Part shown: positions 18,912 to 64,000 of the stretch, piece after piece
How the letters are laid out: each line of letters starts with the position of its first letter
Numbering within the stretch: position 1 is the first letter of the stretch
From: Candidatus Poriferisocius sp.
GTDB taxonomy: Bacteria; Actinomycetota; Acidimicrobiia; Acidimicrobiales; Bin134
DNA: 64,000 nucleotides
Direction of reading: 5' to 3'
NCBI GenBank assembly: GCA_965221865.1
Contig: OZ244918.1
Location: forward strand, 1,702,816-1,766,815
Notes under the pieces: generated by a model
What the model was told of the DNA's origin: nothing
Seen by the model: only the letters and a program-made list of their open reading frames with translations
The model's database searches: none
Made by a program: the position numbers and the translations under genes

Positions 18912-18927
18912 CTGTGTGAAGTAGAGA

Positions 18928-19597: not shown

Positions 19598-19643
19598 CAC
19601 AGGTTCTTTTTAGCAACTTCTAGGCTGCTAAAAAGAACTCTAA

Positions 19644-19876: not shown

Positions 19877-20365
19877 GTGCGGGCTACCTATCGTGATGCT
19901 TATGCGTTAGCGTATCGACTTACTCGCAACGCTGCCGATGCTAGCGATGTGGTGCAAGATGCCTATGTACGTGCATACCGAGCTATTCGCCGGTTTAGGG
20001 GTGAATCTAGCTTTTCTACATGGATGTATCGGATTGTTAGCAACTGCGCGTCTACGCATTTAAGCCGGCGTTCGCGTTATCGTACCGATGAACTTAAAGA
20101 TGATGCTGCGGTCTTCGACATCAGCCCCGAGCAAGACCCAACTCTGCGTGCCGAGGCAGTGTTGTTGCATCAGCATTTAGACCATGCCATTCGGACTCTT
20201 CCTGAGCGGCTACGACAAGTAGTTGTATTACGACATTTGCATGATTTCAGCCACCGGGAGATTGCATCTCAGCTCGGTATTACGACAACGGCAGCAAAGG
20301 TGCGACTGCACCGGGCTCGGCAACGACTCCAAGAGCTGCTGCATCTAGCAACCGAGGTTGAATGA
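19877..20365 (+). CDS. ECF-type RNA polymerase sigma-70 factor (start probably further upstream)
   Basis: Region 2 (DVVQDAYVRAY..FRGES.FSTWMYRIV.N) and region 4 (L..RQVVVLRH....S..EIA..LGIT..A.KVRLHRAR). Confidence 0.85.
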   Translation: MRATYRDAYALAYRLTRNAADASDVVQDAYVRAYRAIRRFRGESSFSTWMYRIVSNCASTHLSRRSRYRTDELKDDAAVFDISPEQDPTLRAEAVLLHQHLDHAIRTLPERLRQVVVLRHLHDFSHREIASQLGITTTAAKVRLHRARQRLQELLHLATEVE

Positions 20366-20550
20366 GTTCTGAGGTGAATCGCATGGGTGCCCAACGTCGC
20401 CCAGAGGTGGCACACCCAACTTTAGTGTGGGAGGTCATGGGCCGTCTTGATGCATATGAGAGACGGCAACGTTTAACTAAGCGTTGGTTAGCTGGAGCGG
20501 GTTTAGCGGTTGTTACATGGGTAGCTCACAAAAAGTCCGTTTCGCATTAA
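20362..20550 (+). CDS. Putative anti-sigma factor (single TM)
   Basis: ATGA start/stop overlap with the sigma gene and one TM segment (WLAGAGLAVVTWVA). Assigned by position only. Confidence 0.4.
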   Translation: MSSEVNRMGAQRRPEVAHPTLVWEVMGRLDAYERRQRLTKRWLAGAGLAVVTWVAHKKSVSH

Positions 20551-20627
20551 CCGCAATTTTGTGTTTACATTATTTTTGTATTGTGGCTTGGGGGTTAACT
20601 CCTGTAGTCTAAAAGAACCCCTGACTT

Positions 20628-20700
20628 AGGGCAGTGGCTCAATTGGTAGAGCACCGGTCTCCAAAACCGGCGGTTGGGGGTTCGAGTCCCTCCTGCCCTG
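20628..20700 (+). tRNA. tRNA-Trp (anticodon CCA)
   Basis: Acceptor agggcag/ctgccct, anticodon arm ccggt-ctCCAaa-accgg. In the canonical position upstream of secE. Confidence 0.9.
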
Positions 20701-49800: not shown

Positions 49801-51861
49801 AATGTTCCGTTCCGTTTGTTGATCGATGATGTAGGTTTAGTGGGTTTAGCTGATTTCACTATTCACAATGGTGATACTACTAGTTCAGCTAGTTTGAAAG
49901 CTCCTAACGACCGGTATGATGAACCAACTAAACAAGCATGGACAGCGGAATTGAACACTGCGTTGCTACCCGAAAATCATGTTGCTGATACATCTCGGGT
50001 GGCATTTACTGTTACAGATAATGATCCGACCACGGTTACTCTCAACGGGCTTGCAGGTGATATCGCTGAGGACACGGTGAAACGATTTACAATCACCCTT
50101 AACCGCGGGTTAGTAGCCGGTGAAACCTTGCCTGTACCTTTGGTTTTTGGTGGTACTGCTACCCGCAACGCGGATTACACTACTGCTTGCCCTGATCCTT
50201 TGCCGGTGGGAATACAATGCAATAATCTTGATACCGCTGAGACGCCGACTGTAACATTCACTGGCCCTCAACAAGGTGTAACAGCCCGTTCGGTTACTTT
50301 AACAGTCACCGCCCAAGCAGACCTATACACTGAAAACGACGAAACTCTGCGCATCGCTTTAGCACCCCTAAACGCTGATTCTGGTGACGGTTTAGGCGGC
50401 GGCGCGGTTGCTGTCAACGATTTTGATGCGTTCAACATCACAGACACCACCGACCCAGCAACCGCAATACAACCACCCCCAGAAGACCCTGAAGAACCTG
50501 TTGATCCTGAACCTGAAACAGTACCAACAACGCCCATATATCAAGTACCCACCAGCCTCATAGCTGATGTGCGCGGTTACGCTGCTGAAACTCACAATGG
50601 TGCCGCGCATGTGCGCCGTTGGCAACAAGTCTTGTTAGCGTTCGGTGACACCGTTAATGGGTTCACCGGCGCTCCGATCACTCTCACCGAAGCGCGAACC
50701 TATGCGCAACAGTTCTGGAGTGTTCGCTGGGATCCGGTAGTTGAAGCACTACAACAACTCGCCAACAACCCCCAACCCCAACCCACCGCAACACCTCAAC
50801 CCACTCCAACATCCACACCAACACCATCTGTTTACACCGTGCCAGCCAGCCTCATAGCTGATGTGCGCGGTTACGCTGCTGAAACTCACAATGGTGCCGC
50901 GCACGTGCGCCGTTGGCAAAGAGTCTTGCTCGCGTTCGGTGAAGACGTGCCAGGCTTCACTGGCACCCCGATCACCCTCACTCAAGCGCGAACCTATGCG
51001 CAACAGTTCTGGGGCAGCCGCTGGGATCCTGTAGTTGAAGCATTGCAACAACTCGCCAACAACCCGCCACCCCAACCTAACGACCCGTCGCCTAACAATC
51101 CGCCGCCTAACAATCCTTCAGTTGACCCACAGCCAAAACCTGTGCTGCCCAGAATCGGTGTTACAGCACCCACCGATATCACCGAAGGCCAAACCGCCGA
51201 TTTCACATTCACCGCTGTGTCCGCCCCCGCAACCCCGCTCACTGTCACTGTCAACATAATCACAACAGGTGATTATGGCATCACCGCTGGCAGCCGCACC
51301 GTGACCATAGACACCAACGGCACCGCCACACTGTCACTAGCTACCATTGGTGACAGCGTTGACGAACCAAACGGCACTATCACCGTCACACTTACCACCA
51401 GTAACACCTATAATGTTGACTCTGCTGCTGCGACTGCGACGGTTACTATCGCAGACGACGACGCACCAGTACAAACCACAAGCACACCTATTATTTCTAT
51501 AGCCGACCAAACCATCACCGAAGGCACCTCCTGTCGTACCCCCGCCCCCTGGTCCTGCCTCAACTTATACCCTGTCACTGTCACTTTGAACCAACCCCAC
51601 CACCAAAGCGTGTGGGTCTCATTCACCATCACCCAACTCGGACAAGGAACAGGCTATGCCACCGCGAACCAAGACTTCGCCGCACGCGACCGAAGAAGCT
51701 TCATCATCGCCGCAGGCCAAACCACCAAAAACATATACGTCAACATCAAAGACGACAACACCAAAGAACCCGACGAAACCTTCCAAATCACCCTACACAA
51801 CCCCCTCCGCGGACAAATCGGCGACGGACAAGCCACCATCACCATCAAAGACAACGACTAA
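43861..51861 (+). CDS. Giant secreted Calx-beta-like/FN3 repeat protein (2666 aa as listed; likely start GTG 43972)
   Basis: Signal-peptide-like RGFVAAALAAVLFGVLFGVLAPGSVGA-QT. Contains two FN3 pairs, many Calx-beta-like modules (..DNDATTV.., VD.DVDEPN.TL.V.L), three super-repeats and two 98-aa C-terminal modules. An AAGG lies 8 nt before 43972. Confidence 0.85.
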   Translation: MVVLCVGLRVLLLLWGGGGAGLVRCLRLGGWLRKVLRVRGFVAAALAAVLFGVLFGVLAPGSVGAQTSSVVSSTGDSAVEVGEGSVAVVGFSVSPPVDSEVWLRFCFESSLADSNFSNLQTQIGNMNVSLDNNGCFDGQTVTVTVAGATTQSATIRFQPLTNTVDDLDEVVTVTVSEDPDNPLPDGVSIDAEADSVSRKIVDEDPTVVSLARSGSGAITEGGSAELTVSLGRELVAGEMVGVPLAISGTNVTTADYDLVLKEGQGLNTGVELSGVSTTEPHLSFSGAGAQTATLLLTALLNNDTGAETVTVALGPDDATANGFDRPALETNVSGGVNRSSTQNSVNVTVNDPAAPAAPRLSLAQAGDGQVYLSWANPVNSLITGYEFQRRPSGGEWGSAKGIVGSNANTITYVVTGLTNDTAYTFRVRAVSGNTDGAWSDASAAVTPTSASTARPAVPTNLAAVAGDSQVVLTWDNPGNTAITSYEVRQRTGSADWGTWAAIASSSATTVTHTVTGLTNGVTYQFQVRAATGNQDALKSLTPTDFFAEATPRPAPPTLLVSSRSALRVPEGTTTLGYNIVLSRALTADDPAVLEFEIAVSGTATRGTDYSFSSDSNLSGTGVSVVNTAGKGNPVIRIDRAAFGLTRRGSTAGLIINVNPDSDTESTDETIVLTTPGTTLTHMIYDAPASVEAKFALASSTYAEGFGPLTVVVQLSALTGRDLVFPILYPSATTTAVANVDYTPVNSFTVKANGQLTHSLVIPYVDNDVDEPNKTLSVMLGAAPSGATKATTDTMTVTIADNDATTVALAVADTTLREDTDTRLTVTLSRDLVAGEIVRVPLTVSGTGVTADDYTLELASDAGLNTGVRLNIASPFSAASPQVVFTGSSGTEQVATLVLSASYDATSEGAETLQVGFGAVTSNLAHPDRSTFTAAGTTAGAPVDVTVNNLDAPAAPTGLAATAGDTQVSLVWDDPGNNLITGYQFRRGSGDPFSWGTHKGVANSDASTTSYVVTSLTNSTEYSFQVRALINSVEGAWSSTVKATPTSSSTAPPAAPSNVTATAGDTQVVLTWANPGNAAITGYEVRQRAGSSGSWGSWAAIASSSATTVTHTATGLTNGIEYSFEVRAVAGTTQGAASVTVTATPMIEPPILNLFRRPPARLPEGTITDTNFDFRLSRALTSDDPALVDLEVAVSGTATRNVDYQFFSSGTVAGVSVLNTAGTGNLVLRINRATFGTTSQAVSVKLGIRVLPDNTVESSDETIILTPAGGSARTFSVYDAPASVEVNVEQSRLRASTLENRSLHLTLVLDAATGKDLVFPVSYSGTATSGSDYTPVDSFTVKANGRLTHSLVIPYVDDDVDETNETVTVMLGDAPSGATKGSTDTATFTIVDNDATTVTMKLAGRAGIEENTSTQLTVSLSRDLVTGEEVWVPLTVSGTGVTADDYTFSLASGTGLNTGVTLNTTAPYSAALPQVLITGGSAVERFATLTLSAADDSTAENTETLSIGYGSVESNLDRLDASIFSTGGTTTAGAPVTVQISDEATGPTLLFTRTGTGTRLPEGTTLVEHNFVLSRRLNGTDPQVLEYEIGLGGTATRGADYTLRFVSQARHSDGVTVINTAGSSNPVLRINRTVFGSRLTRGTVGLVLSVTADNTVESAAETITLTTSGGSLAYTIYDAPASVEAKFTRAAYGYQEGNRVFTVVIQLNEPTGKDLVFPLSYPQPTTAVSGVDYTPVDSYTVKANGELNHAISFLYNDNNLDELTKTLTVMLGAAPDGVTKGTPDTATVTIYDNTPTAVTLAVNGSSSIEEDTSTQLTVTLGRDLVAGEIVRVPLTVSGTGVTADDYTLELASDAGVNTGVTLNTANPYSAAEPQIVFTGGSSVERVATLVLKAVADNDDTETSETMTISFGSVTSNLDQINPSVFDGSGTAAGEPVEILLGAAVLTLSVDSGTANPTEVVEGELLMITVTRSQANRTGADINVPFRLLIDDVGLVGLADFTIHNGDTTSSASLKAPNDRYDEPTKQAWTAELNTALLPENHVADTSRVAFTVTDNDPTTVTLNGLAGDIAEDTVKRFTITLNRGLVAGETLPVPLVFGGTATRNADYTTACPDPLPVGIQCNNLDTAETPTVTFTGPQQGVTARSVTLTVTAQADLYTENDETLRIALAPLNADSGDGLGGGAVAVNDFDAFNITDTTDPATAIQPPPEDPEEPVDPEPETVPTTPIYQVPTSLIADVRGYAAETHNGAAHVRRWQQVLLAFGDTVNGFTGAPITLTEARTYAQQFWSVRWDPVVEALQQLANNPQPQPTATPQPTPTSTPTPSVYTVPASLIADVRGYAAETHNGAAHVRRWQRVLLAFGEDVPGFTGTPITLTQARTYAQQFWGSRWDPVVEALQQLANNPPPQPNDPSPNNPPPNNPSVDPQPKPVLPRIGVTAPTDITEGQTADFTFTAVSAPATPLTVTVNIITTGDYGITAGSRTVTIDTNGTATLSLATIGDSVDEPNGTITVTLTTSNTYNVDSAAATATVTIADDDAPVQTTSTPIISIADQTITEGTSCRTPAPWSCLNLYPVTVTLNQPHHQSVWVSFTITQLGQGTGYATANQDFAARDRRSFIIAAGQTTKNIYVNIKDDNTKEPDETFQITLHNPLRGQIGDGQATITIKDND
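43904..43918 (+). repeat. Homopolymeric G15 tract in the giant gene 1 leader / extreme 5' end
   Basis: Counted directly. Lies 54 nt upstream of GTG 43972, where a signal-peptide-like sequence starts. A G9 run is at 43754-43762. Confidence 0.95.
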
Positions 51862-54828: not shown

Positions 54829-56238
54829 GTGACTAAGTTTATTAAAGGTGGAACTGTCGTAAGCCCCACTGGAGCCGATCCTGTGGAGGTGCTGATTGAC
54901 GGCGAGACTATCGCCGCTGTGTTGCAACCAGGTTCAGATGTAGCTTTAGCAGCCGAAAACGGGGCTGATCAGATACTAGACGCTACAGGAAAGCTGGTTG
55001 TGCCCGGTGGCGTAGATGTGCATACTCATATGGAGTTGCCGTTTGGTGGCACTGTTGCGTCAGACGATTTTGAATCAGGAACTCGCGCTGCTGCTTGGGG
55101 TGGCACTACCACTATTGTAGATTTTGCTACGCAAAGCTACGGCTTAGACGTGCGCGAGTGTTTTGAGGCTCGTATGGCTCAAGCCGAAGGGCGCTGTGCC
55201 ATTGATTATGGCTTCCATATGATTATTGGTGATGTTACCGATGTTGCTCTTGGTGAGATGGACCTTTTAGTTAATGAAGGCGTGAGCAGCTTCAAACTGT
55301 TTATGGCGTATCCAGGCGTGTTTTACAGTGATGACGGCCAGATTTTGCGGGCTATGCAGCAGTGCGCCAGCAATGGTGGTTTGATGATGATGCATGCTGA
55401 AAATGGTATAGCCATTGATGTGCTAGCCGAACAAGCTTTTGAACGAGGTGAGACCGACCCTGTTAACCATGGGTATGTGCGTCGAGCCGAGTTTGAGTCG
55501 GAGGCAACCCATCGTGCTATTCAGCTAGCTAAGGTGGGTGCAGCCCCGCTGTACATCGTTCACCTGTCTGCTAAGCAAGCCTTAGAGCAGGTAGCCATTG
55601 CTCGCAATAACGGTGCCAATGTTTTTGCAGAGACCTGCCCACAATACTTGTATTTCAGTTTGGAGGAACACCTAGATCAAGGTTGGGATGGTGCCGCCTA
55701 CGTTTGTTCCACGCCTATCCGTTCTCATCACCATCACCATCAAGATGAGTTGTGGAAGGGTTTGCGAACTAACGATTTGGCGGTTGTGTCAACCGACCAT
55801 TGCCCGTTTTGCATGAAGGAGCAAAAAGAGTTGGGTGTTGGCGATTTTCGGGCTATTCCTAATGGTATAGGTGGCGTAGAGCATCGCATGGATTTGATTT
55901 ATCAAGGTGTAGCTACAGGCGAGATTAGTGTTCCCCGTTGGGTGGAGTTGTGTTCAACAACGCCAGCTCGCATGATGGGTCTTTATCCTCGCAAGGGTAT
56001 TATCCAACCGGGATCAGATGCTGATTTGGTTATCTACGATCCACAAGCCTCTTGGACTATTAGCGTGGATAATCATCACATGAACATCGACCATTCCGCT
56101 TATGAGGGTATAGAGGTAAGTGGACATGTAGACACGGTGTTGTCTAGAGGGCGTGTGATAGTTGATAAGAATCAGTATTTTGGCCACATGAGTCACGGCC
56201 AGTATCAGCGCCGTGGTTTGAGCAGCTACTTGATCTAA
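54829..56238 (+). CDS. Dihydropyrimidinase / D-hydantoinase
   Basis: GGVDVHTHMELPFGG, FKLFMAY (carboxylated Lys), STDHCPF. Confidence 0.88.
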   Translation: MTKFIKGGTVVSPTGADPVEVLIDGETIAAVLQPGSDVALAAENGADQILDATGKLVVPGGVDVHTHMELPFGGTVASDDFESGTRAAAWGGTTTIVDFATQSYGLDVRECFEARMAQAEGRCAIDYGFHMIIGDVTDVALGEMDLLVNEGVSSFKLFMAYPGVFYSDDGQILRAMQQCASNGGLMMMHAENGIAIDVLAEQAFERGETDPVNHGYVRRAEFESEATHRAIQLAKVGAAPLYIVHLSAKQALEQVAIARNNGANVFAETCPQYLYFSLEEHLDQGWDGAAYVCSTPIRSHHHHHQDELWKGLRTNDLAVVSTDHCPFCMKEQKELGVGDFRAIPNGIGGVEHRMDLIYQGVATGEISVPRWVELCSTTPARMMGLYPRKGIIQPGSDADLVIYDPQASWTISVDNHHMNIDHSAYEGIEVSGHVDTVLSRGRVIVDKNQYFGHMSHGQYQRRGLSSYLI

Positions 56239-56277
56239 CGGCTGAGATATGTATTTCACACCCATGAGGAGTTAATA

Positions 56278-57765
56278 GTGCAGGAGATACACCATTTAAT
56301 TAACGCAAAGCAGGTTGCAGGCACATCAGGGCGTACATCTGCGGTTTTTAATCCTGCTACTGGCACACAAACCGGTGTTTTGTCGCTGGCAGCTAAAGAC
56401 GAGGTAGATTATGCGGTAGCAGCAGCACAGGCTGCTTTTACCGAGTGGCGTAAGGTGTCGGTGGCGCGCCGCATCACCTTAATGTTTAGTTTTCGTAATT
56501 TGGTGGTAGAACATACCGACAAGATAGCGGGCTTGCTTACTGCTGAGCATGGCAAGGTTAACGTAGATGCTTTGGGTGAGGTAGCTCGCGCTATTGAGAA
56601 CGTTGAGTATGCGTGTGGGGTAGCTGAGCATCTTAAAGGTAGCCACAATGAGACGGCATCTACTGGTGTAGATGTCTATACGGTGCGTCGCCCTTTGGGT
56701 GTTGTGGCTGGAATAACACCGTTTAATTTTCCGGCCATGGTGCCTTTATGGATGATTCCTAACGCTGTTGCTTGCGGTAATACTTTTGTGCTCAAACCTT
56801 CAGAGCGCGACCCGTCTGCTCCTATGTTCATAGCTGAGTTGTTTCAACAAGCTGGTTTCCCGCCTGGGGTATTGAATGTAGTTAACGGCGATAAGGTAGC
56901 CGTGGATCGGCTGTTAGAGCATGCAGATATCAAGGCGGTGAGCTTTGTTGGTTCTACCCCTATTGCTCGTTATGTGTACGAAACTGGCACTTCGCATGGA
57001 AAGCGGGTTCAAGCTCTAGGCGGCGCTAAAAATCATATGGTGGTGTTACCCGATGCTGATATTGATTTAGCTGCTGACTCAGCGGTTTCAGCTGCCTACG
57101 GATCAGCTGGGGAACGCTGCATGGCTATTTCTGTGGTGGCCGCAGTTGGGGATGTTGCCGATCCATTGGTTGATGCTATTAAAGTACGTATGGAGAAGCT
57201 GGTTATTGGCAGTGGCGTTGATCCCGCTTCGGATATGGGGCCGCTAATCACCCGGGAACATCGCGACAAGGTAGCGGGGTACATTGATTCTGCTGTGGTA
57301 CAAGGGGCAAATGTTGTGGTAGACGGTAGGCAAAGTCATTTTGAAGGAGACGGCTTCTTTCTTGGAGTGTCGTTGTTAGACAACGTAACTGCTGATATGG
57401 ATGCCTACCGCGATGAGATATTTGGCCCGGTGCTTTGTGTTGTGCGATGCGATACTTACGCTGAAGCTGTTGGGCTCATAGCAGACAATTCTTATGGTAA
57501 TGGTGCAGCTATCTTTACTCGAGATGGTGGAGCAGCTCGACGGTTTCAAGAAGATGCCGATGCTGGCATGGTGGGGATAAATGTACCTTTGCCAGTACCA
57601 GTGGGGTACCACTCTTTTGGTGGTTGGAAAGACTCCCTTTTTGGCGACACTACTATGTATGGACCTGAAGGAATTTCTTTCTACACCCGCCCTAAGGTGA
57701 TGACCACCCGTTGGCCCGACCCTGCTGAAAGTTCAGTAAACCTTGGTTTTCCCACTAATGCTTGA
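56278..57765 (+). CDS. mmsA: CoA-acylating methylmalonate/malonate-semialdehyde dehydrogenase
   Basis: FNFPAMVPLWM, VLKPSERDP, GERCMA. Confidence 0.88.
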   Translation: MQEIHHLINAKQVAGTSGRTSAVFNPATGTQTGVLSLAAKDEVDYAVAAAQAAFTEWRKVSVARRITLMFSFRNLVVEHTDKIAGLLTAEHGKVNVDALGEVARAIENVEYACGVAEHLKGSHNETASTGVDVYTVRRPLGVVAGITPFNFPAMVPLWMIPNAVACGNTFVLKPSERDPSAPMFIAELFQQAGFPPGVLNVVNGDKVAVDRLLEHADIKAVSFVGSTPIARYVYETGTSHGKRVQALGGAKNHMVVLPDADIDLAADSAVSAAYGSAGERCMAISVVAAVGDVADPLVDAIKVRMEKLVIGSGVDPASDMGPLITREHRDKVAGYIDSAVVQGANVVVDGRQSHFEGDGFFLGVSLLDNVTADMDAYRDEIFGPVLCVVRCDTYAEAVGLIADNSYGNGAAIFTRDGGAARRFQEDADAGMVGINVPLPVPVGYHSFGGWKDSLFGDTTMYGPEGISFYTRPKVMTTRWPDPAESSVNLGFPTNA

Positions 57766-57868
57766 CGGGACACACCTGTTCCCCGATATTTTGAGAGCAG
57801 ATTGTTTGGGTAATATAGTAAACGTTACGTCAAGCTACTATTGTTGGTGATTGTTGAAAGGATGAGGA

Positions 57869-58741
57869 ATGGCAAAAACTGAGACTATTCGTGCTCGAGT
57901 TGAGCCAGAGCTTAAACAAAAGGCCGACAAGGCACTAGCTGAACTTGGTGTTACAGCTACCGATGCCATTACACGAATGTATGAAGAGGTTGTGTCCACA
58001 GGGGCGTTACCGTTTGCCGATGATGCAACAACCACAGCTAATCCGAATAAACAAATCGCAAACCCTAAAGAACCGGTAGAAGGGCAAACTGTTGTAGCTA
58101 CATCTCAACGCCCACCTACAGAGGCGAGTCGTTCCGAAGGTTATCACGATAAGGTTTCAGGGGAACAGCAGCGTCAAGGCACACCTAAAAACGATATACC
58201 TAAAGAAGAACTACCTACTTCTAGTTCACGGGAGGGAACGGTTTCGCTAGGCGGTTTTTCGCCTGACGCGAGGATAAAGCCTGCAACTATTTTTATTATT
58301 TTGGGGTCTTTGGCTTTTGCAGCCTTGTTTGCGGTCTTTTTGTATCTTCTTGTCGCAGAGCGTTCTCACACTCATGATGAGTACGCCGAACACACCCATG
58401 CGCATGATGAGTATGCCAGTCACACGCATGCGCATGATGAGTACGCTGAGCACACTCATGATGAGTACGCCGAACATACCCATACCCACGATGAATATGC
58501 TGAACATACCCATGTGGTGAGCCCTTATGGTTATGGCCTAAACAGCCAGCCTCAGTACCCGGTGCCTCCTGTTTATGGGACTATTCCTGCACCTGCTCCA
58601 TTTTGGCCTGCTCCAGAGCTTTATTCACAACCCAATTCTGGAGCAGAAATGTATTACTGTCCTAATGGAGAGCATTATTCATTTCAAGCATCTCCAGACT
58701 GCGTTTATAGGGGAACATATTACAATAGACCTTTTGGATAA
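57869..58741 (+). CDS. DinJ/RelB-like RHH domain fused to a TM helix and a His-rich repeat region
   Basis: N-terminus TIRARVEPELKQKADKALAELGVTATDAITRMY..V...GALPF resembles DinJ. TM is ATIFIILGSLAFAALFAVFLYLLVA. Five HTH(A)HDEYAE repeats lie at 58367-58513. Confidence 0.6.
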   Translation: MAKTETIRARVEPELKQKADKALAELGVTATDAITRMYEEVVSTGALPFADDATTTANPNKQIANPKEPVEGQTVVATSQRPPTEASRSEGYHDKVSGEQQRQGTPKNDIPKEELPTSSSREGTVSLGGFSPDARIKPATIFIILGSLAFAALFAVFLYLLVAERSHTHDEYAEHTHAHDEYASHTHAHDEYAEHTHDEYAEHTHTHDEYAEHTHVVSPYGYGLNSQPQYPVPPVYGTIPAPAPFWPAPELYSQPNSGAEMYYCPNGEHYSFQASPDCVYRGTYYNRPFG

Positions 58742-58756
58742 AGGCTAGAAAATCAG

Positions 58757-60900
58757 CGGTGGTTGGGTGGGGTTAGAGTTTTATGTAGGTGTCGGGGTTT
58801 TGGGTGTGTTTTTGCTTTGGGGAACAGATTTTTCGTGTTGTTGATAATTGGGGAACAGATTTTGTTTGTTTGTTTTTATCTGGGTTTTTAGCTTGTTTGT
58901 AAGGGTTTTCTAGTTTTTGTTGTTCCTCGTGGTTTGTTTTCCGTTATCTGTGTGTGTTGGTTGTTTGTTTTTGTAGTTTGTGGGGGTTTGGTGTTTGTTG
59001 GAGGGTAGCTGCTGGGGGTGGTGGGGTTTTGGTGGGGGTGTGGTTGGTTTTTTATTGTTTGTTGATTTTTGTATAGTATATGAATTATGAGTGGTTTGTT
59101 GTTTTGTTTGTTGAGGGGGGGTTTGTGTTTTGATTCTTTGGTGTGCGGGGGGGGGGGCTGGGTTTGTTGTTTGGGGTTGTGTGTGTGGGTTGAGGTGGGG
59201 TTGTGATGTTGGTGGGGGGTTTTTGTTTTAGGGTTGTTTGTGGTTTGGTGGTTGTGTTGGGTTTGTTTGTTTCGGGTTTGGGTGTTGGTGGTGGTGTGGT
59301 TGCGGAGGGGGGTGGTTTTGTGGGGGTGGGTGTGGGGGGTTCTGGTGTTGTTGTGGGGGTGGGTGATGTTGGTGTTGGTGGGGTTTTGGGTGTTGGGGGT
59401 GGGTCTGATTTGTTTTGGGGTTTGGATGGTTTGGAGGGTTTGGAGGGTGTTGGGGGTGGTGTTGGTGTGGTTGGGGGTCGTGTGGGTGGTGGGTTGTTGT
59501 TTGGTGGGGATGGTTTTTTGGATTTGGGTGTGGGTGTGGGTGGGGGTGGGGGTTTTGGTTTTGAGGGGTGTGGGTCTGGGGAATCTGGTGTGGTTGAGGG
59601 TGTTGTTGAGGAGCTTATGTCAGATACTGTTGTGGCGGATAGTGGGTGTGGGTGGTCTGTTGGTTTGTGGGTGAAGCGGGTTGGTGGGGTTGTTGGTGGG
59701 TCTGTGTTGTTGGGGTCTTTGGAGGGTGGGGATTCTTTGTTGTTGGAGGGTGTTGGGGGTCGTGTGGGTGTGGGGCGGTTGGGTGGTGTGGTTCGTAGTT
59801 TTGGGTTTGGTACGCCGTTGGGTGAGTGGGTTTATTTGGTGTTTGTGGGGTCGTCGGGTGGTGTGGGTTTGTTTGTGGATGGGGTGTTGGTGGGTTGGGT
59901 TGGTGGGGGTGTTGGGTTGTCTTTGGGTGTTTTGGGTGGTGGTGTTGGTGGTGTTGGGGGTGTGAGGGCTGTTTTGGATGATTTGCGGGTGTGGGGTCGT
60001 GTGTTGTCTGCGGGTGAGGTGGCGGGGGTGTTTGGGGGGTTTGAGCCGTTGTTGGTGCCTGGTGTTGTTGAGGGTTTGGTTGGGGCTGATGTTGGTGTTG
60101 GGAGTGTTGGGTTGGGGTGGTTAGCGCCTGTTGGTGGTGGTGGGGTTGAGGGGTTTGAGGTGCGTTGGCGTGAGGAGGGTTCGGGTGTGTGGTTGGGTGA
60201 GGGTGTGGTTGAGGTGTCGGCTCAGGGGAAGGGGGAAGAGGGGTATGGTTTTGTGGCCGATGGGTTGGGTGTTGGGGTGGCATATGAGTTTTGGGTGCGT
60301 GCTGTTAATGGTGTGGGTGGTGGTGGTTGGGTTTCTGTTCGGTTTGTTGCGGGTGTTTCGGGGGTGGCTGATGTTGTGAGCGGGTTGAGGGTGTCTTCTG
60401 AGCCGGGTGGGTTTAGGGTTTCGTGGGGTAGGCCTGTTGATGCGGGTGGTTTTGATGTGTCGGGGTTTGAGGTGCGTTACCGGCGTGGTGGTGGTGGTGG
60501 TTGGGTGTCTGAGTTTGTGGGTGACACAGAGCGGGGGTTGGTGGTGGATGGTTTGGTTGTTGGTGGTGCCTATGAGGTGCAGGTGCGGGTTTTGACTGGG
60601 TTTGGTGCGGGTTTGTGGGTGTCTGGGAGGGTTGTTGTGGGTCGTGAAGGTGTTCCGGGTGTTCCGGGTGGGTTGTTGGTTGATGTTGGGGCAGATGGGG
60701 TGGTGTTGTTGTGGGATGCGCCTGTTAGTGATGGTGGTGTTGGGGTTGATGGTTATGAGGTTCGGTATAGGCGGGGCGGGTTTTGGTCTGAGCCTGTTGG
60801 TTTAGAGTCTTGGGTGCGGGGTTATGAGTTTTCGGGTTTGGTGCGTGGTGTGGATCATGTGTTGTTGGTGCGGGCTATAAATGAGCGTGGGCCGGGTTCT
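58757..60900 (+). other. G+T-saturated (A/C-depleted) tract
   Basis: For example, 59281-59400 has 4 A/C in 120 nt. The tract covers 450 nt of non-coding DNA and the first 1.7 kb of giant gene 2. Confidence 0.9.
59147..59157 (+). repeat. Homopolymeric G11 tract 49 nt upstream of the giant gene 2 ATG (plus G7 at 59115-59121)
   Basis: Counted directly. Confidence 0.95.
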
Positions 60901-63900
60901 TGGGCTGGTTTAGAGGTAGGTTTTGGTGTTTCATCTAAACAAGCGTTCACGGTGCCTAGGTTGGTTGGTTGGTTGCCTGGTGATGGGGTGTTCACAGTTG
61001 TTAGGGGTTCACGTGTTGTGATTACGGGTGGTGATACAGCTAGGAGTTGGTCTGAGGATTTCATGTCCACAGTATTAGAAAACGAAGAGGTGGTAGCCGA
61101 TGTTGACAGTGTTTTAGGTGTGAATGTGTTGCAAGCACATTCACAGGTTGTGGGTGTTGCTACTGCTGCGCGTAGGGTTTTACGGGAGGTAGCAGAAAAG
61201 ATAGCTGCCGATTTGGAAGCTGTCACAGGTTTTGATGTGCCTGTGGTGGTGGTTGATGATATTCAAAGTGCGCGTGCTGGTGACATTGTGTTGGATGTAG
61301 CTGATAGTTCGGTTGAAGGGTTGGGGGTGGAAGGTTACACATTGTTTGTGGGTGATGTGGTAAGGATTGTTGGGAATACTTCTACTGGCGTGTTTTGGGG
61401 GTCGAGGTCTTTGCTGCAATTGTTAGCAGCATCTGAAACCGGTTTGGTGGTACCAGCAGGTTCGGTGCGTGATATTCCTTCAGCGGTTAGCGCTGTGAGA
61501 TCTTTGCATTTAGATAAAGCAGCCAGGTTTTACAGTCCAACACATTTACAACAGTTGATCGGGTTGTTGTCTTGGCACAAACTAAACGTGTTACACCTTG
61601 ATTTCACTTTCGCTAATGGTAGATACGATCAAGCGGTTTGGCTTTCGGATTTAGAAAACTTCGCTCGCGACCATCATGTGGCAGTAATCGTTAGCGAACC
61701 GCTTGCCGACACTACACCACCCGCAGAACAAGCAGACAGGCTAGTTGCTGAAAGTTTTGTTAGCAGCGGTGTGGTTGGGAGTGTTGTTGGTGACGGTGAT
61801 GCAGGGTTAGTTGAGAGCACAGTCACACAAGACCGTCAACAATTAGCTAACACTGTGTCTGGTGTGAGCGCGGATCGTTGGGTGAGGGGACACCGTTTTG
61901 TTTTAGGACGTCAACTTGTGTTACCTGATTTAGCGGCTATTCACAGTCTGGCTAGCAAACTGAATGGGCCCGGTGAGGTGGGTGCTGGACTGTTCGTGGG
62001 CGGCCCGTTAGCTTTAGCAGCCACCGACGGGTTCATCAACTATCATTTAGGTTCGTCTTTAGCAGTGCTCGGTGACCGGTTATGGAACGAGCAGGCATCT
62101 AACTGGACAGTCGACGAGTTCCTAACAGCTAAAAACATTATCGGTTCACCGCTCACAACAAAAACCGTTCACAACTCTGAACAACATCGCGGGCTCATAC
62201 ACCACTGGAGTTTCAACAATGTGAAATATTATCAAACCTCTGAAAACACAGCAGATAAGACAAGCTATTTACTAATACCCGATCATACGGGCAGAGCTGA
62301 CGGATATGCGATCGGTGACCCACAAAAATTTCCTCGGCTAAACGCTGACAGCCGTCTTTTAGGTCAAAGCATAGAATTCGGGCACAGCGAACAAGTCCTA
62401 AACCAAGACGGCATAGAACTAGGCGCCACAGACTTACCAGTACCATGGACCCTGTCAGCGTGGGTGAAACGAACCGGCAACCATCCCGGAGCGACACTAC
62501 TAAACTCAATTAACGGGGCGATACGCCTACAACAACACAACAAACCCGTAATAGGCCTCCTAGACCGCACAAACACACCATACACATACCACAACTTTGA
62601 CTACACCCTGCCACTAAACAAATGGGTACACCTAACACTCATCGCCACCCAACAAGGCACAGTACTATACGCTGATAGCCGTCTTGTCGGCTCAGTGCCC
62701 AAGTCGATTTCGTTGCCGCTACAACAAATCGGGTTTGAAAACCTCATCGGCCTAAAAGCCAAAATAGATGATATCAAAATATGGGGGCAACCACTTGTTT
62801 CTGCTGTCAACCAAGTTATATCCACCCCAACAACACCCATTGATCAACCCATAGTGCCCGAGCTGGTTGCTACACCACCATTAGAACCCGGTTTAGTAGC
62901 AGTGTCGCTGGATGTGAACAACTCGGGCACAGTCACAGAGGGTGGCACGTTGACGGTCACTGCGACATTAGCGGCAGCGGCCGCAGCGAACGTTACGATT
63001 CCAGTGCGCGTTGCCTCCGGTGGCACAGCAGGAGCTGGTGATTACACACTTTCTGCTTCGGGGAACATTACTATTAGCAGCGGTTCCACATCAGGCACTT
63101 TGACGTTTAATGCTACCGATGACAGTATTGATGAAAACAATGAGACGCTAACATTAGAGTTCGGTACGCTACCTGCCGGTTATCGTGCTGGCAGCCCGTC
63201 AAGTGTGAACATCACCATAACAGACAACGACACAGCGGGTGTGACCATCACCGAGACCGGTGACAGCACATCGGTAGCAGAAAACGCTGGTACTGACACT
63301 TACACCGTCGTGTTAGACACCCAGCCAACCCATGATGTGTCGGTGGCGGTCACATCAACAGGGCCTGTGGCGTTTGATGGACCAGATGATGCGACCGCGT
63401 ACACCACAAGTGAAACATTAACGTTCACACCAACTAACTGGGCGACAGCGCAGACGATCACAGTGCAAGGCCAAAACGATGATGTGGACAACACTGGCGG
63501 GTCGCGTAGCGCGACACTCTCTCATGATGTGTCGTCCAGCGACACGGCTTATAACGCTATAGCTGACCAAGATGTCACCGTAACGGTGACCGATGATGAT
63601 GCGACGCCTGAGATTGATTTAAGTGTGAACCCGGCAACGGTGGCAGAAGATGCTGGCGCGACCACGGTGACAGTTACCGCCACGGTTGATGACGCGACCA
63701 TCAGATTTGACGCGGCGAAAACGGTAGCAGTGTCGGTTACAGGGTCGGGTGAGGCTAACCGGGTCGGGTTCACAGCGGTCAACAACTTCAACATTACTAT
63801 CGCTGCTGGCCAACCGTCGGGGAGTAACACGTTCACGCTCACACCAGATGATGACAGCACTGATGAGACCGACGAGACAATCACCATATCGGGCACTTCA

Positions 63901-64000
63901 ACTGGGCTAACCATCAACCCGGCGACGTTGACCCTCACCGACGATGATGCTCTTGCACTTGTTAGCATGCCTGTCACGTTGGGGGTCAACAACTCGGGCA
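59206..64000 (+). CDS. Giant surface protein 2 (partial, continues past the window)
   Basis: Domain order is TM/signal, LamG, 3x FN3, GH20-like, LamG, Calx-beta-like repeats. Frame 1 is open from the stop at 59191-59193 to the window end, checked by hand translation of several segments. It is absent from the ORF track because no stop is reached. Recognisable landmarks include W.VGLWVKR...LFVDG...DDLRVWGR.LSAGEV (LamG_3), FRVSWGRPVDAGGFDVSGFEVRYR (FN3), EGYTLFV...GVFWGSRSLLQLL...D.P....R.LHLD.AR.FYS...L..LI.LLS.HKLNVLHLDF (GH20-like), and ..TITDNDTAGV.. (Calx-beta-like). Confidence 0.85.
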   Translation, partial: MLVGGFCFRVVCGLVVVLGLFVSGLGVGGGVVAEGGGFVGVGVGGSGVVVGVGDVGVGGVLGVGGGSDLFWGLDGLEGLEGVGGGVGVVGGRVGGGLLFGGDGFLDLGVGVGGGGGFGFEGCGSGESGVVEGVVEELMSDTVVADSGCGWSVGLWVKRVGGVVGGSVLLGSLEGGDSLLLEGVGGRVGVGRLGGVVRSFGFGTPLGEWVYLVFVGSSGGVGLFVDGVLVGWVGGGVGLSLGVLGGGVGGVGGVRAVLDDLRVWGRVLSAGEVAGVFGGFEPLLVPGVVEGLVGADVGVGSVGLGWLAPVGGGGVEGFEVRWREEGSGVWLGEGVVEVSAQGKGEEGYGFVADGLGVGVAYEFWVRAVNGVGGGGWVSVRFVAGVSGVADVVSGLRVSSEPGGFRVSWGRPVDAGGFDVSGFEVRYRRGGGGGWVSEFVGDTERGLVVDGLVVGGAYEVQVRVLTGFGAGLWVSGRVVVGREGVPGVPGGLLVDVGADGVVLLWDAPVSDGGVGVDGYEVRYRRGGFWSEPVGLESWVRGYEFSGLVRGVDHVLLVRAINERGPGSWAGLEVGFGVSSKQAFTVPRLVGWLPGDGVFTVVRGSRVVITGGDTARSWSEDFMSTVLENEEVVADVDSVLGVNVLQAHSQVVGVATAARRVLREVAEKIAADLEAVTGFDVPVVVVDDIQSARAGDIVLDVADSSVEGLGVEGYTLFVGDVVRIVGNTSTGVFWGSRSLLQLLAASETGLVVPAGSVRDIPSAVSAVRSLHLDKAARFYSPTHLQQLIGLLSWHKLNVLHLDFTFANGRYDQAVWLSDLENFARDHHVAVIVSEPLADTTPPAEQADRLVAESFVSSGVVGSVVGDGDAGLVESTVTQDRQQLANTVSGVSADRWVRGHRFVLGRQLVLPDLAAIHSLASKLNGPGEVGAGLFVGGPLALAATDGFINYHLGSSLAVLGDRLWNEQASNWTVDEFLTAKNIIGSPLTTKTVHNSEQHRGLIHHWSFNNVKYYQTSENTADKTSYLLIPDHTGRADGYAIGDPQKFPRLNADSRLLGQSIEFGHSEQVLNQDGIELGATDLPVPWTLSAWVKRTGNHPGATLLNSINGAIRLQQHNKPVIGLLDRTNTPYTYHNFDYTLPLNKWVHLTLIATQQGTVLYADSRLVGSVPKSISLPLQQIGFENLIGLKAKIDDIKIWGQPLVSAVNQVISTPTTPIDQPIVPELVATPPLEPGLVAVSLDVNNSGTVTEGGTLTVTATLAAAAAANVTIPVRVASGGTAGAGDYTLSASGNITISSGSTSGTLTFNATDDSIDENNETLTLEFGTLPAGYRAGSPSSVNITITDNDTAGVTITETGDSTSVAENAGTDTYTVVLDTQPTHDVSVAVTSTGPVAFDGPDDATAYTTSETLTFTPTNWATAQTITVQGQNDDVDNTGGSRSATLSHDVSSSDTAYNAIADQDVTVTVTDDDATPEIDLSVNPATVAEDAGATTVTVTATVDDATIRFDAAKTVAVSVTGSGEANRVGFTAVNNFNITIAAGQPSGSNTFTLTPDDDSTDETDETITISGTSTGLTINPATLTLTDDDALALVSMPVTLGVNNSG

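What the first reader, a model, noticed from the sequence alone, without database searches (positions are those of the whole stretch)
58757..60900. 2.1-kb tract with A and C almost erased from the coding strand, spanning the upstream region and first 1.7 kb of a giant surface-protein gene
On the + strand, 59281-59400 holds only 4 A/C in 120 nt. In 40 consecutive frame-1 codons (60409-60528), 37 end in G or T. The tract begins about 450 nt upstream of the ATG and crosses non-coding DNA, a LamG-like domain and three FN3-like domains. It fades at about 60.9 kb, after which the same ORF has ordinary composition. The surviving A's sit mostly at amino-acid-defining positions (GAN Asp/Glu, TAY Tyr), and domain landmarks are still readable (W, Y.V.V, DDLRVWGR.LS..E). 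This looks like near-saturating A->G plus C->T change on one strand, filtered by purifying selection, rather than a random low-complexity insert. A->G together with C->T on the same strand is the signature of adenine and cytosine deamination in single-stranded DNA. Known parallels are the vertebrate mtDNA heavy strand, the non-template strand during transcription, and AID-type promoter-proximal hypermutation. I do not know of a described bacterial process that produces kb-sized, sharply bounded tracts like this in chromosomal surface-protein genes.
Basis: partly seen in the sequence, partly recalled or inferred. Interest (0 to 1): 0.88.

Follow-up and report, generated by a model that had tools for sequence, protein, structure and literature searches.

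The report
Polar G+T to A+C repeat unit
The G+T-only stretch is real DNA: it is the front half of a 4-kb block shared by three giant surface-protein genes, which runs from almost pure G+T to A+C-rich, and 24 young transposon copies in the same genome show the same strand-specific mutation pattern still at work, a pattern I could not find described for bacteria.

Summary
In window 58757-60900, G+T is 0.87. The third positions of the first 566 codons are 97% G/T. The 446-nt non-coding leader is also G+T-rich.

It is not an artefact. Contigs from three independent studies carry it. It still encodes a recognisable Laminin_G_3 domain and three fn3 domains.

It is not a one-off event:
- Three paralogous ~10,000-aa genes share it at 97-98% identity and exchange segments.
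- Orthologues in other species are also G+T-rich at the 5' end.
- The skew does not fade to ordinary composition. It falls smoothly to an A+C-rich minimum (GT3 0.13-0.26) at 62.5-62.8 kb, exactly where the three-way shared block ends.

The same G+T to A+C polarity marks IS607-TnpB elements, DUF222-HNH genes and other large surface-protein genes. It is nearly absent from unique genes. Young variants in the 24 IS607 copies are C>T and A>G in the left half and G>A in the right half.

The process is therefore ongoing, mutational, dominated by transitions, and polar within repeat units.

The best mechanism is inferred, not shown: damage to single-stranded nascent DNA during recombination-dependent copying, in a lineage without endonuclease V that has lost two uracil/mismatch glycosylases. 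No dedicated deaminase was found.

The parts
58757..59202 (+). Non-coding G+T-rich leader, the left end of the repeat unit. G+T is 0.79-0.94 and there are stops in all three frames. It holds two GGGGAACAG motifs (58819-58827, 58850-58858), an A-retaining TATAGT/ATG-containing patch near 59075-59095, and a poly-G run.
   Evidence: Positions 58799-58976 are homologous to the far-upstream region of paralogue T3 (score 77 against 39.5 +/- 5.8 for shuffles). Contigs of runs X1, X5 and X7 cover it with 0 to 1 differences.
59147..59157 (+). Homopolymeric G tract: G11 here, G18 and G13 in the two paralogues. It lies 46 nt upstream of the GTG start. It is a candidate slipped-strand (phase-variation) site.
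   Evidence: Counted. Short-read contigs of X1 and X5 break at 59068-59159. The G005 orthologue has a poly-G/poly-C run with Ns at the same place.
59203..60913 (+). G+T-written start of the 10,768-aa gene. It encodes a hydrophobic signal-like N-terminus, a Laminin_G_3 domain (about residues 150-274) and three fn3 domains (about residues 292-570). GT3 is 1.00 to 0.89.
   Evidence: Alignment with orthologues. AlphaFold model is all-beta, with pLDDT 80-90 over the fn3 domains and 60-70 over LamG.
60914..62379 (+). Transition zone of the same shared block (GH20b-like domain, residues 643-757). GT3 falls 0.71, 0.66, 0.54, 0.46, 0.32.
62380..62800 (+). A+C-rich mirror tract at the right edge of the three-way shared block. 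GT3 is 0.26/0.22/0.13 in the three copies. It encodes the second Laminin_G_3 domain in N/K/T/Q/H/P/I-rich codons.
59203..64000 (+). Giant surface-protein gene (10,768 aa, running out of the window). It is one of three paralogues (genome 1762018, 1801040, 2027494), all on the leading strand.

Best explanation
SHOWN.
1. The tract is genuine chromosomal DNA. It is the 5' half of a repeat unit of about 4 kb (58757 to about 62800). The unit is shared at 97-98% identity by three ~10,000-aa adhesin-like genes, which exchange segments by gene conversion.
2. Composition runs as a smooth gradient across the unit. Third positions go from 100% G/T at the left end to 13-26% at the right end.
3. The same polarity is found in IS607-TnpB elements, in DUF222-HNH genes and in most large surface-protein genes of this genome. 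In each, a strand is G+T-rich towards its own 5' end of the unit. The polarity is almost absent from unique genes.
4. It is kept up by a continuing strand-specific transition bias. In 24 near-identical IS607 copies, new variants are C>T and A>G on the top strand in the left half and G>A in the right half. This holds whatever the copy's orientation to replication.
5. Protein-level selection keeps A and C only where Asp, Glu, Ser, Arg, Ala, Pro and Tyr codons need them.

INFERRED.
6. The pattern is what is expected if each unit is repeatedly re-copied from both ends inward by recombination-dependent DNA synthesis. That would be gene conversion between the adhesin paralogues, and break-induced homing or gap repair for IS607-TnpB and HNH elements.
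7. In that process each nascent strand is displaced as single-stranded DNA. Its 5' part stays single-stranded longest, so cytosine and adenine deamination (and perhaps guanine oxidation) are fixed when the second strand is made.
8. The lineage is predisposed. The genus has no endonuclease V. This genome and its low-GC, small-genome relatives have lost the family-4 uracil-DNA glycosylase and a Mug-like G:U/G:T glycosylase.
For: Reality of the sequence:
- Contigs from three studies match it, with 2-3x depth over the paralogous part.

Paralogy and mosaic exchange:
- Three copies at 97-98% identity.
- 127 variable sites fall in 28 runs against 81.5 expected, p<1e-4.

Gradient tied to the unit:
- GT3 goes from 1.00 to 0.13-0.26, with the minimum at 62503-62803, where three-way identity ends.
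- The leader is part of the unit, because it is homologous to the T3 upstream region.

Class effect:
- A 100-codon window with GT3 >= 0.9 occurs in 39 of 192 repeated genes against 2 of 1698 unique genes (Fisher 3e-38). A window with GT3 <= 0.1 occurs in 15 of 192 against 3 of 1698.
- In 48 repeat families, the 5'-minus-3' GT3 difference is positive in 37 and negative in 8.
- Unique genes show no promoter-proximal enrichment: 0.530 for first genes against 0.541 for operon-internal genes.

Ongoing mutation:
- IS607 columns 49-1207 show C>T 17 and A>G 11. Columns 1436-2274 show G>A 12 and C>T 1.
- Left against right gives Fisher 1.7e-6. The pattern occurs in co-oriented and head-on copies alike, and also in variants shared by 2-3 copies.

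Lineage contrast:
- On the G000 branch (three copies), A/C-to-G/T is 33 against 6 in reverse. On the single-copy G005 branch it is 9 against 39 (Fisher 5e-10).

Element-bound gradient elsewhere:
- A 65%-identical IS607 in a 61%-GC genome runs from 0.71 to 0.30 G+T within the element, with flanks near 0.5.

Repair genes:
- PF04493 (endonuclease V) is found in 0 of 40 genus genomes.
- The UDG superfamily has 3 genes in most genomes but 1 in G000, G005 and G042. The missing ones are TIGR00758 family 4 (209.7 bits in G001) and a Mug-like gene.
- Those three genomes have lower GC, 50-57% against 63-70%.

Precedents from the literature:
- TnpB cleaves vacant donor sites, and the break is repaired by recombination that re-copies the element (PMC10055086; 10.1101/2023.11.20.567912).
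- Nascent single-stranded DNA in migrating-bubble synthesis is a target for damage (PMC9262586).
- Break repair gives strand-coordinated clusters (PMC6786661).
Against: - No recombination intermediate or single-stranded DNA was observed. The mechanism is inferred from pattern only.
- The two halves of IS607 are not exact mirrors. The right half shows G>A 12 but T>C only 1, where about 8 would be expected from the left-half A>G rate.
- Long-term change includes C>G and G>T transversions.
- G005 also lacks the two glycosylases, yet its single-copy orthologue is drifting away from G+T. Glycosylase loss alone is therefore not sufficient.
- Genus members with all three UDG genes still hold short pure-G/T patches.
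- The TnpB-like ORF matches its family only weakly (43 bits, cut-off 100), so its homing activity is unproven.
- Giant genes keep GT3 of 0.6-0.8 over tens of kb. The unit-edge model explains this only with help from the leading-strand bias and internal repeats.
- Majority-rule polarisation among only three paralogues is unreliable where copies have exchanged segments.
Confidence: 0.45

Rival explanations
1. Transcription-associated damage of the non-template strand (R-loop or AID-like promoter-proximal hypermutation). The G-rich sense strand stabilises RNA:DNA hybrids, exposes itself, and runs away towards G+T. A+C-rich 3' ends would need antisense transcription from the unit's right end.
For: - The tract begins upstream of the start codon and is strongest over the first 1.5 kb.
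- The polarity follows gene orientation in 37 of 45 repeat families that have a non-zero difference.
- Seven of the window's 8 G-quadruplex motifs lie in the tract.
- A positive-feedback model would explain why only some genes reach the extreme.
- Orthologues in other genomes are also skewed at the 5' end.
Against: - Unique promoter-proximal genes show no 5' G+T enrichment.
- In paralogue T2 a canonical TTGACG-17-TATAAT promoter lies about 330 nt upstream, yet the 5' leader between it and the shared block is only 0.59-0.70 G+T. The extreme skew starts where homology starts.
- GT3 does not decay to the gene's baseline. It dips to 0.13-0.26 exactly at the end of the shared block and then rebounds.
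- The polarity switch in mid-IS607 needs an unproven antisense promoter.
- G-quadruplex motifs are no more frequent than the composition predicts: 7 against 7.0 +/- 2.1.
- The pattern is symmetric under reverse complement, so agreement with gene orientation does not discriminate.
Confidence: 0.2
2. An unrecognised, dedicated mutator (a DNA deaminase or error-prone polymerase recruited to these units), possibly used to diversify surface-protein N-termini or to cripple repeats, as RIP does in fungi.
For: - Repeated DNA is hit and unique DNA is spared.
- Per-site rate ratios of about 9 to 14-fold are larger than usual spontaneous asymmetries.
- Three IS607 copies carry TAG stops, which fit CAG-to-TAG (C>T) changes (the codon change itself was not checked).
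Against: - Only three CDA-fold proteins exist, TadA, RibD and Cdd, by family search and by a six-frame H[AV]E...PC..C motif scan.
- There is no reverse transcriptase.
- The fn3 and LamG folds are conserved rather than diversified.
- The IS607 copies are still mostly intact, so the process is not an effective repeat-killing system.
- The search did not cover every deaminase family.
Confidence: 0.12
3. Selection on the RNA or DNA itself. Examples are a C-poor, G-rich 5' transcript that escapes Rho loading, a C-rich unstructured 3' part, or selection for weakly structured mRNA.
For: - G/U-only and A/C-only RNAs cannot form strong internal helices.
- Giant genes and foreign elements are classic Rho targets (general knowledge).
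- The skew is conserved in orthologues across very different GC contents.
Against: - New variants in 24 young IS copies already carry the bias. Selection cannot sort these efficiently after insertion.
- Rho avoidance does not explain the loss of A in favour of T.
- The A+C-rich part lies inside the translated region, and DNA downstream of the stop codons is not A+C-rich.
Confidence: 0.08
4. Ordinary leading-strand (replication) skew, or horizontally acquired DNA of odd composition.
For: - The genome has a strong replichore skew. The origin is near 1.40 Mb and the terminus near 2.86 Mb.
- GT3 is 0.58 in co-oriented genes and 0.46 in head-on genes. All three paralogues lie on the leading strand.
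Against: - The magnitude is too small: 0.58 against 0.97-1.00.
- The sign flips within the same gene.
- The IS607 spectrum is the same in co-oriented and head-on copies.
- The bias continues in situ, and the locus is syntenic with that of the sister species.
Confidence: 0.05
5. Assembly, base-calling or two-colour-chemistry artefact.
For: - G/T-only sequence and poly-G runs resemble known sequencing failure modes.
- Some relatives' contig ends carry pure poly-G.
Against: - Independent contigs from three studies agree base for base over 55000-59149 and 59187-59535.
- The translation gives significant fn3 and Laminin_G_3 hits and aligns with orthologues from other genomes.
Confidence: 0.02

Closest known systems
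Heavy-strand compositional gradient of vertebrate mitochondrial DNA
   Same: One strand is enriched in G+T through C>T and A>G. There is a smooth gradient, which in mtDNA is read as time spent single-stranded. Amino-acid composition is dragged along.
   Different: Here the pattern is bounded by 2-4 kb repeat units inside a bacterial chromosome. It flips to the other strand at the far end of each unit, and it is far more extreme (third positions 97-100% G/T). No strand-displacement replication is known for these units.
Strand-coordinated mutation clusters from single-stranded DNA at double-strand-break repair or break-induced replication (yeast, cancers; PMC6786661, PMC9262586)
   Same: Changes are coordinated on one strand, switch strand across the event, and are linked to recombination-dependent synthesis and nascent or resected single-stranded DNA.
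   Different: Those are single-event clusters, mostly driven by APOBEC or alkylation. Here it is a long-term equilibrium composition built from many events, with A>G as well as C>T, and no APOBEC-like enzyme was found.
AID-driven somatic hypermutation and G-rich immunoglobulin switch regions
   Same: A kb-scale, 5'-proximal, G-rich non-template strand in genes for variable surface molecules, and an association with recombination.
   Different: No AID/APOBEC homologue was found. The boundaries follow homology blocks, not the promoter. There is a mirror A+C end. This is germ-line equilibrium rather than somatic change.
Repeat-induced point mutation (RIP) of fungi
   Same: Repeated DNA is affected and unique DNA is spared. 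Transitions dominate.
   Different: RIP gives C>T on both strands and A+T-rich, inactivated repeats. Here GC stays at 55-59%, A>G is part of the spectrum, the effect is polar along the unit, and the genes remain functional.
Replication- and transcription-associated strand skews of bacteria (leading-strand G+T excess; non-transcribed-strand C>T)
   Same: The same direction of change (C>T, G+T excess). The genome has a clear replichore skew of this kind.
   Different: Usual skews amount to a few percent and are uniform over co-oriented genes. This one saturates, is local, and reverses within a gene.
TnpB/IscB-assisted homing of IS200/IS605 and IS607 elements (PMC10055086; 10.1101/2023.11.20.567912)
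   Same: It supplies a known life-cycle step in which a whole element is re-copied by break-induced recombination. That step is what the polar IS607 spectrum here would need.
   Different: As far as I found, a polar compositional consequence has not been reported. Activity of this element's TnpB-like ORF is untested.

Membership tests
Replication-associated strand skew | The sign follows the leading/lagging strand and switches at the origin and terminus | tested here: met
   Cumulative GC skew has its minimum near 1.40 Mb and its maximum near 2.65-2.86 Mb. The tract lies on the leading strand.
Replication-associated strand skew | Similar magnitude in all co-oriented genes, with no reversal inside a gene | tested here: not met
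   Co-oriented unique genes have GT3 0.58 against 0.97-1.00 in the tract. GT3 falls to 0.13-0.26 inside the same ORF. The IS607 spectrum is independent of orientation.
AID/APOBEC-type promoter-proximal hypermutation | A polynucleotide cytidine deaminase is encoded | tested here: not met
   PF00383 and PF14437 searches, plus a six-frame zinc-motif scan, find only TadA, RibD and Cdd. Not every deaminase family was searched.
AID/APOBEC-type promoter-proximal hypermutation | The zone starts just downstream of the transcription start and decays to background within 1-2 kb | tested here: inconclusive
   The transcription start is unknown and no sigma-70-like site was found. In paralogue T2, the leader between a canonical promoter and the shared block is only 0.59-0.70 G+T. 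The decay overshoots to A+C-rich.
Diversity-generating retroelement | Reverse transcriptase plus a template/variable repeat pair with adenine-specific differences | tested here: not met
   There is no PF00078 match in the genome. Both A and C are lost over 2 kb, and the folds are conserved.
Repeat-induced point mutation (RIP-like) | Acts on duplicated sequence | tested here: met
   39 of 192 repeated genes against 2 of 1698 unique genes reach the extreme skew.
Repeat-induced point mutation (RIP-like) | C>T on both strands, giving A+T-rich, inactivated copies | tested here: not met
   GC is 0.55-0.59 in the tract. A>G is part of the spectrum. The effect is strand-polar, and the ORFs and domains are intact.
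Single-stranded-DNA damage gradient (mtDNA heavy-strand type) | C>T and A>G excess on the exposed strand | tested here: met
   In the IS607 left half, C>T per C is 0.070 against G>A per G 0.008, and A>G per A is 0.045 against T>C per T 0.005. On the G000 branch C>T is 22 against G>A 6.
Single-stranded-DNA damage gradient (mtDNA heavy-strand type) | Monotonic gradient along the unit | tested here: met
   GT3 goes from 1.00 to 0.13-0.26 over 1,200 codons. IS607 G+T goes from 0.78 to 0.33 over 2.3 kb.
Single-stranded-DNA damage gradient (mtDNA heavy-strand type) | A demonstrated single-stranded intermediate of the unit | not testable with these tools
   This needs single-stranded-DNA, R-loop or recombination-intermediate mapping.
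Break-repair/BIR-type strand-coordinated mutagenesis | The mutated strand switches across the copied segment | tested here: met
   The IS607 switch lies between columns 1207 and 1436 of 2,321 (Fisher 1.7e-6).
Break-repair/BIR-type strand-coordinated mutagenesis | The affected DNA undergoes recombination-dependent copying | tested here: inconclusive
   The mosaic among the three paralogues fits gene conversion. Homing of the IS607-TnpB and HNH elements is assumed from the literature and is not shown here.
Phase-variable contingency locus (the poly-G tract only) | A homopolymer close to the start or promoter whose length varies | tested here: met
   G11, G18 and G13 in the three copies, 46 nt before the start. 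Contigs break there.
Phase-variable contingency locus (the poly-G tract only) | A length change switches expression | not testable with these tools
   The tract is not in the main reading frame. No expression data are available.
IS607 family (the comparison element, not the tract) | Serine-recombinase TnpA of the IS607 type, with an accessory TnpB | tested here: met
   NF033518 at 132.9 bits, over its cut-off of 110. The second ORF matches guided_TnpB only weakly, at 43 bits against a cut-off of 100.

The most novel reading that the evidence does not exclude
Bacteria of this lineage have a recombination-coupled, strand-polar hypermutation. Any DNA unit that is repeatedly re-copied by break-induced gene conversion is progressively rewritten, into G+T at the 5' end of each strand and A+C at the 3' end. 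Such units include homing IS607-TnpB and HNH elements and paralogous adhesin cassettes. On this reading, composition alone records the recombination history of a unit and marks which units are being gene-converted. The process also forces surface-protein domains into two opposite amino-acid alphabets.
Probability: 0.3. Interest if true: 0.85.

Novelty: new variant of a known kind. Interest (0 to 1): 0.74.

Why it matters
If the reading holds, three things follow.

1. It would be a natural bacterial example of position-specific, strand-specific mutation pressure strong enough to remove two of the four bases from kilobases of functional coding DNA. The same protein fold (LamG) is written once almost only with G/T codons and once mostly with A/C codons, in one protein. 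That is a natural experiment on how far folds tolerate a reduced amino-acid alphabet.

2. The polar signature would give a purely computational read-out of which elements are being copied by break-induced recombination. That would include the proposed homing of TnpB-carrying insertion sequences, which so far has been shown mainly in laboratory systems.

3. It links loss of uracil and mismatch glycosylases to GC decline and genome reduction inside one genus.

There is also a practical point. G/T-only and A/C-only DNA cannot contain stop codons, so such tracts give spurious ORFs on both strands and in several frames, and they mislead gene callers and composition-based binning.

Tried and rejected
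- Artefact. Rejected by independent contigs and by domain and orthologue matches.
- DGR or retro-element. No reverse transcriptase was found.
- Dedicated deaminase. Only TadA, RibD and Cdd were found. The search was not exhaustive.
- G-quadruplex enrichment. There are 7 motifs, equal to the 7.0 +/- 2.1 expected from composition.
- Promoter and terminator scan of 58400-59400. Nothing was found.
- Rfam scan of the window. Only five tRNAs were found.
- The search for related loci in genome contigs with the tract protein gave one irrelevant fn3 hit.
- Mutation spectrum from the 23 DUF222-HNH genes. They are too diverged and too poorly aligned, and the result was dominated by transversions and noise.
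- Strain polymorphism from laid contigs. There were too few differences, and they were confounded by collapsed paralogues, so no spectrum could be taken.
- Expression. No RNA holder was listed for the tract in either search. This says nothing about expression.
- Literature. Four searches found no description of such tracts in bacteria. Search terms were IS607 with hypermutation/deaminase; GT-rich with coding strand/giant gene/skew; keto/GT/TG skew and G+T content; and repeat-induced point mutation in prokaryotes with strand asymmetry/deamination.
- Organism name. It is hidden by the tools. Only the phylum Actinomycetota could be inferred, from exact matches of the 16S rRNA to the HGC236 and Actino-235 probe sites.
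- Glycosylase loss as a sufficient cause. Rejected, because G005 has the same loss but its single-copy orthologue is drifting away from G+T, and because relatives with all three UDG genes hold short pure-G/T patches.
Full report

Yes.
- From window 58757 to about 60900 the + strand is 0.87 G+T. GC skew reaches +0.94 and AT skew -0.87.
- The ORF starts at the GTG at 59203. In its first 566 codons, G+T at codon positions 1, 2 and 3 is 0.89, 0.76 and 0.972.
- The first 100 codons have 100% G/T third positions.
- 389 of 566 codons use only G and T. What A and C remain lie in GAG, GAT, TCT, CGT/CGG, GCG and TAT.
- The 446 nt before the start have stops in every frame and are 0.79-0.94 G+T. The effect is therefore on DNA, not on protein composition.
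- Genome-wide, the G+T fraction of 300-nt windows has mean 0.50 and sd 0.078. Only three ~2-kb tracts reach 0.86 or more.
- The binomial tail for the third positions, against the mean of co-oriented genes, is 1e-104.

It is not an artefact.
- Contigs from three independent studies match 55000-59067/59149 with 0, 12 and 0 differences. The part shared with the paralogues has two to three times the depth.
- The translation gives three fn3 hits (E 4.6e-24) and a Laminin_G_3 hit above its cut-off.
- It aligns over 520 residues with orthologues.
- With a shallow alignment it folds as an all-beta model, with pLDDT 80-90 over the fn3 domains.

One caution: DNA made only of G and T cannot contain a stop codon. 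The open frame alone proves nothing, and the extra ORFs at 59234-59674 (+) and 59615-60283 (-) are spurious.

**2. What the tract belongs to**

- The genome is a single 2.93-Mb contig of 50% GC.
- It is an actinobacterium by 16S signature sites.
- The ORF is 10,768 codons long.
- Two other genes (genome 1801040 and 2027494, 9,487 and 10,457 codons) share its first 3.7 to 7.4 kb at 97-98% identity.
- The 127 variable sites among the three copies fall into 28 runs where 81.5 are expected (p<1e-4). Each of the three pairings is the closest pair somewhere. This mosaic is the mark of gene conversion.
- The non-coding leader is part of the unit. Positions 58799-58976 are homologous to DNA far upstream of the third copy, where a 0.8-kb repeat has been inserted.
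- A poly-G run lies 46 nt before the start: G11 here, G18 and G13 in the other copies.

**3. The tract is half of a polar unit**

- In 100-codon steps, GT3 runs 1.00, 0.98, 1.00, 0.95, 0.94, 0.89, 0.71, 0.66, 0.54, 0.46, 0.32. It reaches 0.26, 0.22 and 0.13 in the three copies at 62503-62803, and then jumps back.
- The minimum lies where three-way identity ends.
- That stretch is plainly A+C-rich. It encodes the second Laminin_G_3 domain.
- The same fold therefore appears twice in one protein: once in G/V/L/F/W/R codons and once in N/K/T/Q/H/P/I codons.

**4. The same pattern elsewhere in the genome**

A crude gene set of 1,890 ORFs shows three groups with the pattern.
- An IS607-family element of 2.28 kb in 24 copies at about 99% identity. 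Its tnpA has GT3 0.96. G+T falls almost linearly from 0.78 to 0.33 along the element.
- A second IS607-like element (4 copies) and about 23 DUF222-HNH genes.
- Most genes above 1,200 codons for fn3/Calx-beta proteins. These include the 2,666-codon gene at window 43861-51861.

How specific the pattern is to repeats:
- A 100-codon window with GT3 >= 0.9 occurs in 39 of 192 repeated genes and 2 of 1,698 unique ones. The mirror extreme (GT3 <= 0.1) occurs in 15 and 3.
- Over 48 repeat families, the 5'-minus-3' difference is positive in 37 and negative in 8.
- In unique genes, GT3 depends on orientation to replication: 0.58 co-oriented and 0.46 head-on. The origin is near 1.40 Mb.
- Unique genes show no promoter-proximal enrichment.

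**5. It is an ongoing mutation bias**

In the 24 IS607 copies, I took variants present in at most three copies as derived.
- Columns 49-1207 hold C>T 17 and A>G 11.
- Columns 1436-2274 hold G>A 12 and C>T 1.
- The left-right contrast gives Fisher 1.7e-6.
- Per-site ratios are 9- to 14-fold.
- The pattern is the same in copies co-oriented and head-on to replication. It also holds for variants shared by two or three copies, which cannot be consensus errors.

Among the three paralogues inside the tract:
- A>G per A is 0.087 against G>A per G 0.007.
- The raw counts are similar (9 vs 6, 4 vs 6), as expected at compositional equilibrium.

**6. History**

- The sister species G005 has a syntenic single-copy orthologue of 1,249 codons. 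It is 59-61% identical and 0.75-0.82 G+T.
- More distant orthologues in 64% and 71% GC genomes are also skewed at the 5' end, with GT3 0.8-0.94.
- I polarised with these outgroups. At first and second positions, the G000 branch has 33 A/C-to-G/T changes against 6 reverse. The G005 branch has 9 against 39.
- Over all positions, C>T against G>A is 22:6 in G000 and 2:31 in G005.
- The skew is therefore old. It is still being driven in the three-copy genome and is being lost in the single-copy one.
- A 65%-identical IS607 in another genome shows the same gradient confined to the element.

**7. Repair and mutator genes**

- Endonuclease V was found in none of the 40 genus genomes.
- NucS is present.
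- Most genomes have three UDG-superfamily genes. G000, G005 and G042 have one, a divergent family-4/5-like gene. They lack a bona fide family-4 UDG and a Mug-like glycosylase.
- In the loci sampled, these three genomes have 50-57% GC against 63-70% in the rest of the genus.
- Only TadA, RibD and Cdd carry a deaminase fold.
- There is no reverse transcriptase.
- Runs of 45 consecutive G/T occur in 15 of 40 genus genomes. Outside G000 they are short patches or poly-G contig ends.

**8. Mechanism**

What is shown is a transition-dominated, strand-specific bias in which each strand is affected most towards its own 5' end of a repeat unit.

That geometry is not what 5'-to-3' resection alone predicts:
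- Breaks at the unit edges would give the opposite sign.
- Central breaks would give a maximum at the centre.

It is what is expected in either of two cases.
- (a) The unit is copied from both ends inward and the nascent strands are displaced as single strands. This happens in synthesis-dependent strand annealing or migrating-bubble synthesis (PMC9262586, PMC6786661).
- (b) There is convergent transcription with R-loops.

I prefer (a), for these reasons:
- The extremes coincide with homology-block and element ends rather than with promoters.
- The skew overshoots to A+C-rich and then rebounds.
- Unique genes are spared.
- The three kinds of affected DNA are those expected to be re-copied by break-induced recombination: gene-converting paralogues, TnpB-carrying insertion sequences (PMC10055086; 10.1101/2023.11.20.567912), and HNH endonuclease genes.
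- The single-copy orthologue is relaxing.

Weak points of (a):
- The IS607 halves are not exact mirrors.
- Transversions matter over long times.
- TnpB activity is unproven.
- Nothing was observed directly.

I give this reading 0.45, the transcription model 0.20, an unknown dedicated mutator 0.12, selection on RNA or DNA 0.08, replication skew or foreign origin 0.05, and artefact 0.02. The rest is unassigned.

**9. Novelty**

Strand-asymmetric mutation pressure, single-stranded-DNA deamination gradients and break-associated strand-coordinated clusters are all known. A saturating, polar, repeat-unit-bound version in a bacterial chromosome, which rewrites functional domains into two opposite codon alphabets, was not found in four literature searches. 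I file it as a new variant of a known kind.

Noticed in passing
window 59147-59157; genome copies near 1800987-1801004 and 2027434-2027446 (derived from the line offsets): There is a poly-G tract of 11, 18 and 13 G, 46 nt upstream of the start of each of the three giant genes. Short-read contigs break there, and the G005 orthologue has a poly-G/poly-C run with Ns at the same place. It is a candidate phase-variation switch for the adhesin family.
   Followed up: partly
window 62380-62800 compared with 59650-60025: Two Laminin_G_3 domains of the same protein carry the same motif (DDLRVWGR against DDIKIWGQ). One is written in G+T-rich codons and the other in A+C-rich codons. This is a natural pair for testing fold tolerance to a reduced amino-acid alphabet.
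   Followed up: partly
window 43861-51861 (+): A second large surface-protein gene (2,666 aa; fn3 x4, Calx-beta x4) has the same polarity. GT3 is 0.90 at the start and 0.13 in the last 5%, and GC skew goes from +0.42 to -0.31.
   Followed up: partly
genome 642732-645011 and 23 other copies (L013 and L017, L020-L036): An IS607-family element is present in 24 near-identical copies, so it expanded recently. Three copies carry TAG stops in tnpA. The second ORF (545 aa) matches TnpB only weakly and gives no Pfam hit.
   Followed up: partly
window 57869-58741 (+): The upstream gene encodes a RelB/DinJ-like N-terminus, a membrane segment and a run of HDEYAEHTH-type histidine-rich repeats. It is conserved and syntenic in G005 (L016 6065-7063).
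   Followed up: no
window 58819-58827 and 58850-58858; T3 upstream near genome 2026350-2026410: A GGGGAACAG motif occurs twice in the G+T-rich leader and is conserved in the homologous upstream DNA of the third paralogue. It keeps its A and C in a context where they are otherwise lost, so it is probably functional.
   Followed up: no
genome 2026182-2026330 and 2026496-2027295 (upstream of the third paralogue): This region holds a remnant of the tract's own LamG-coding part. It also holds an inserted 0.8-kb repeat (5 or more copies at about 80% identity) whose right end is 0.21 G+T. The family's upstream regions have been rearranged.
   Followed up: partly
whole genus (G000-G055): G000, G005 and G042 are the small genomes (1.8-2.9 Mb). 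In sampled loci they have 50-57% GC against 63-70% in relatives. They have one UDG-superfamily gene instead of three. This is a possible case of repair-gene loss driving GC decline and genome reduction.
   Followed up: partly
window 59234-59674 (+) and 59615-60283 (-): ORFs in other frames and on the opposite strand are open only because G/T-only and A/C-only DNA cannot spell a stop codon. Gene callers may report them.
   Followed up: yes
window 18594-20700: A cluster of five tRNA genes.
   Followed up: no
genome 1672143-1672583 (-) next to the IS607 copy at 1673298-1675571: The TadA-like tRNA adenosine deaminase gene lies directly beside an IS607 copy. This is probably coincidence.
   Followed up: no
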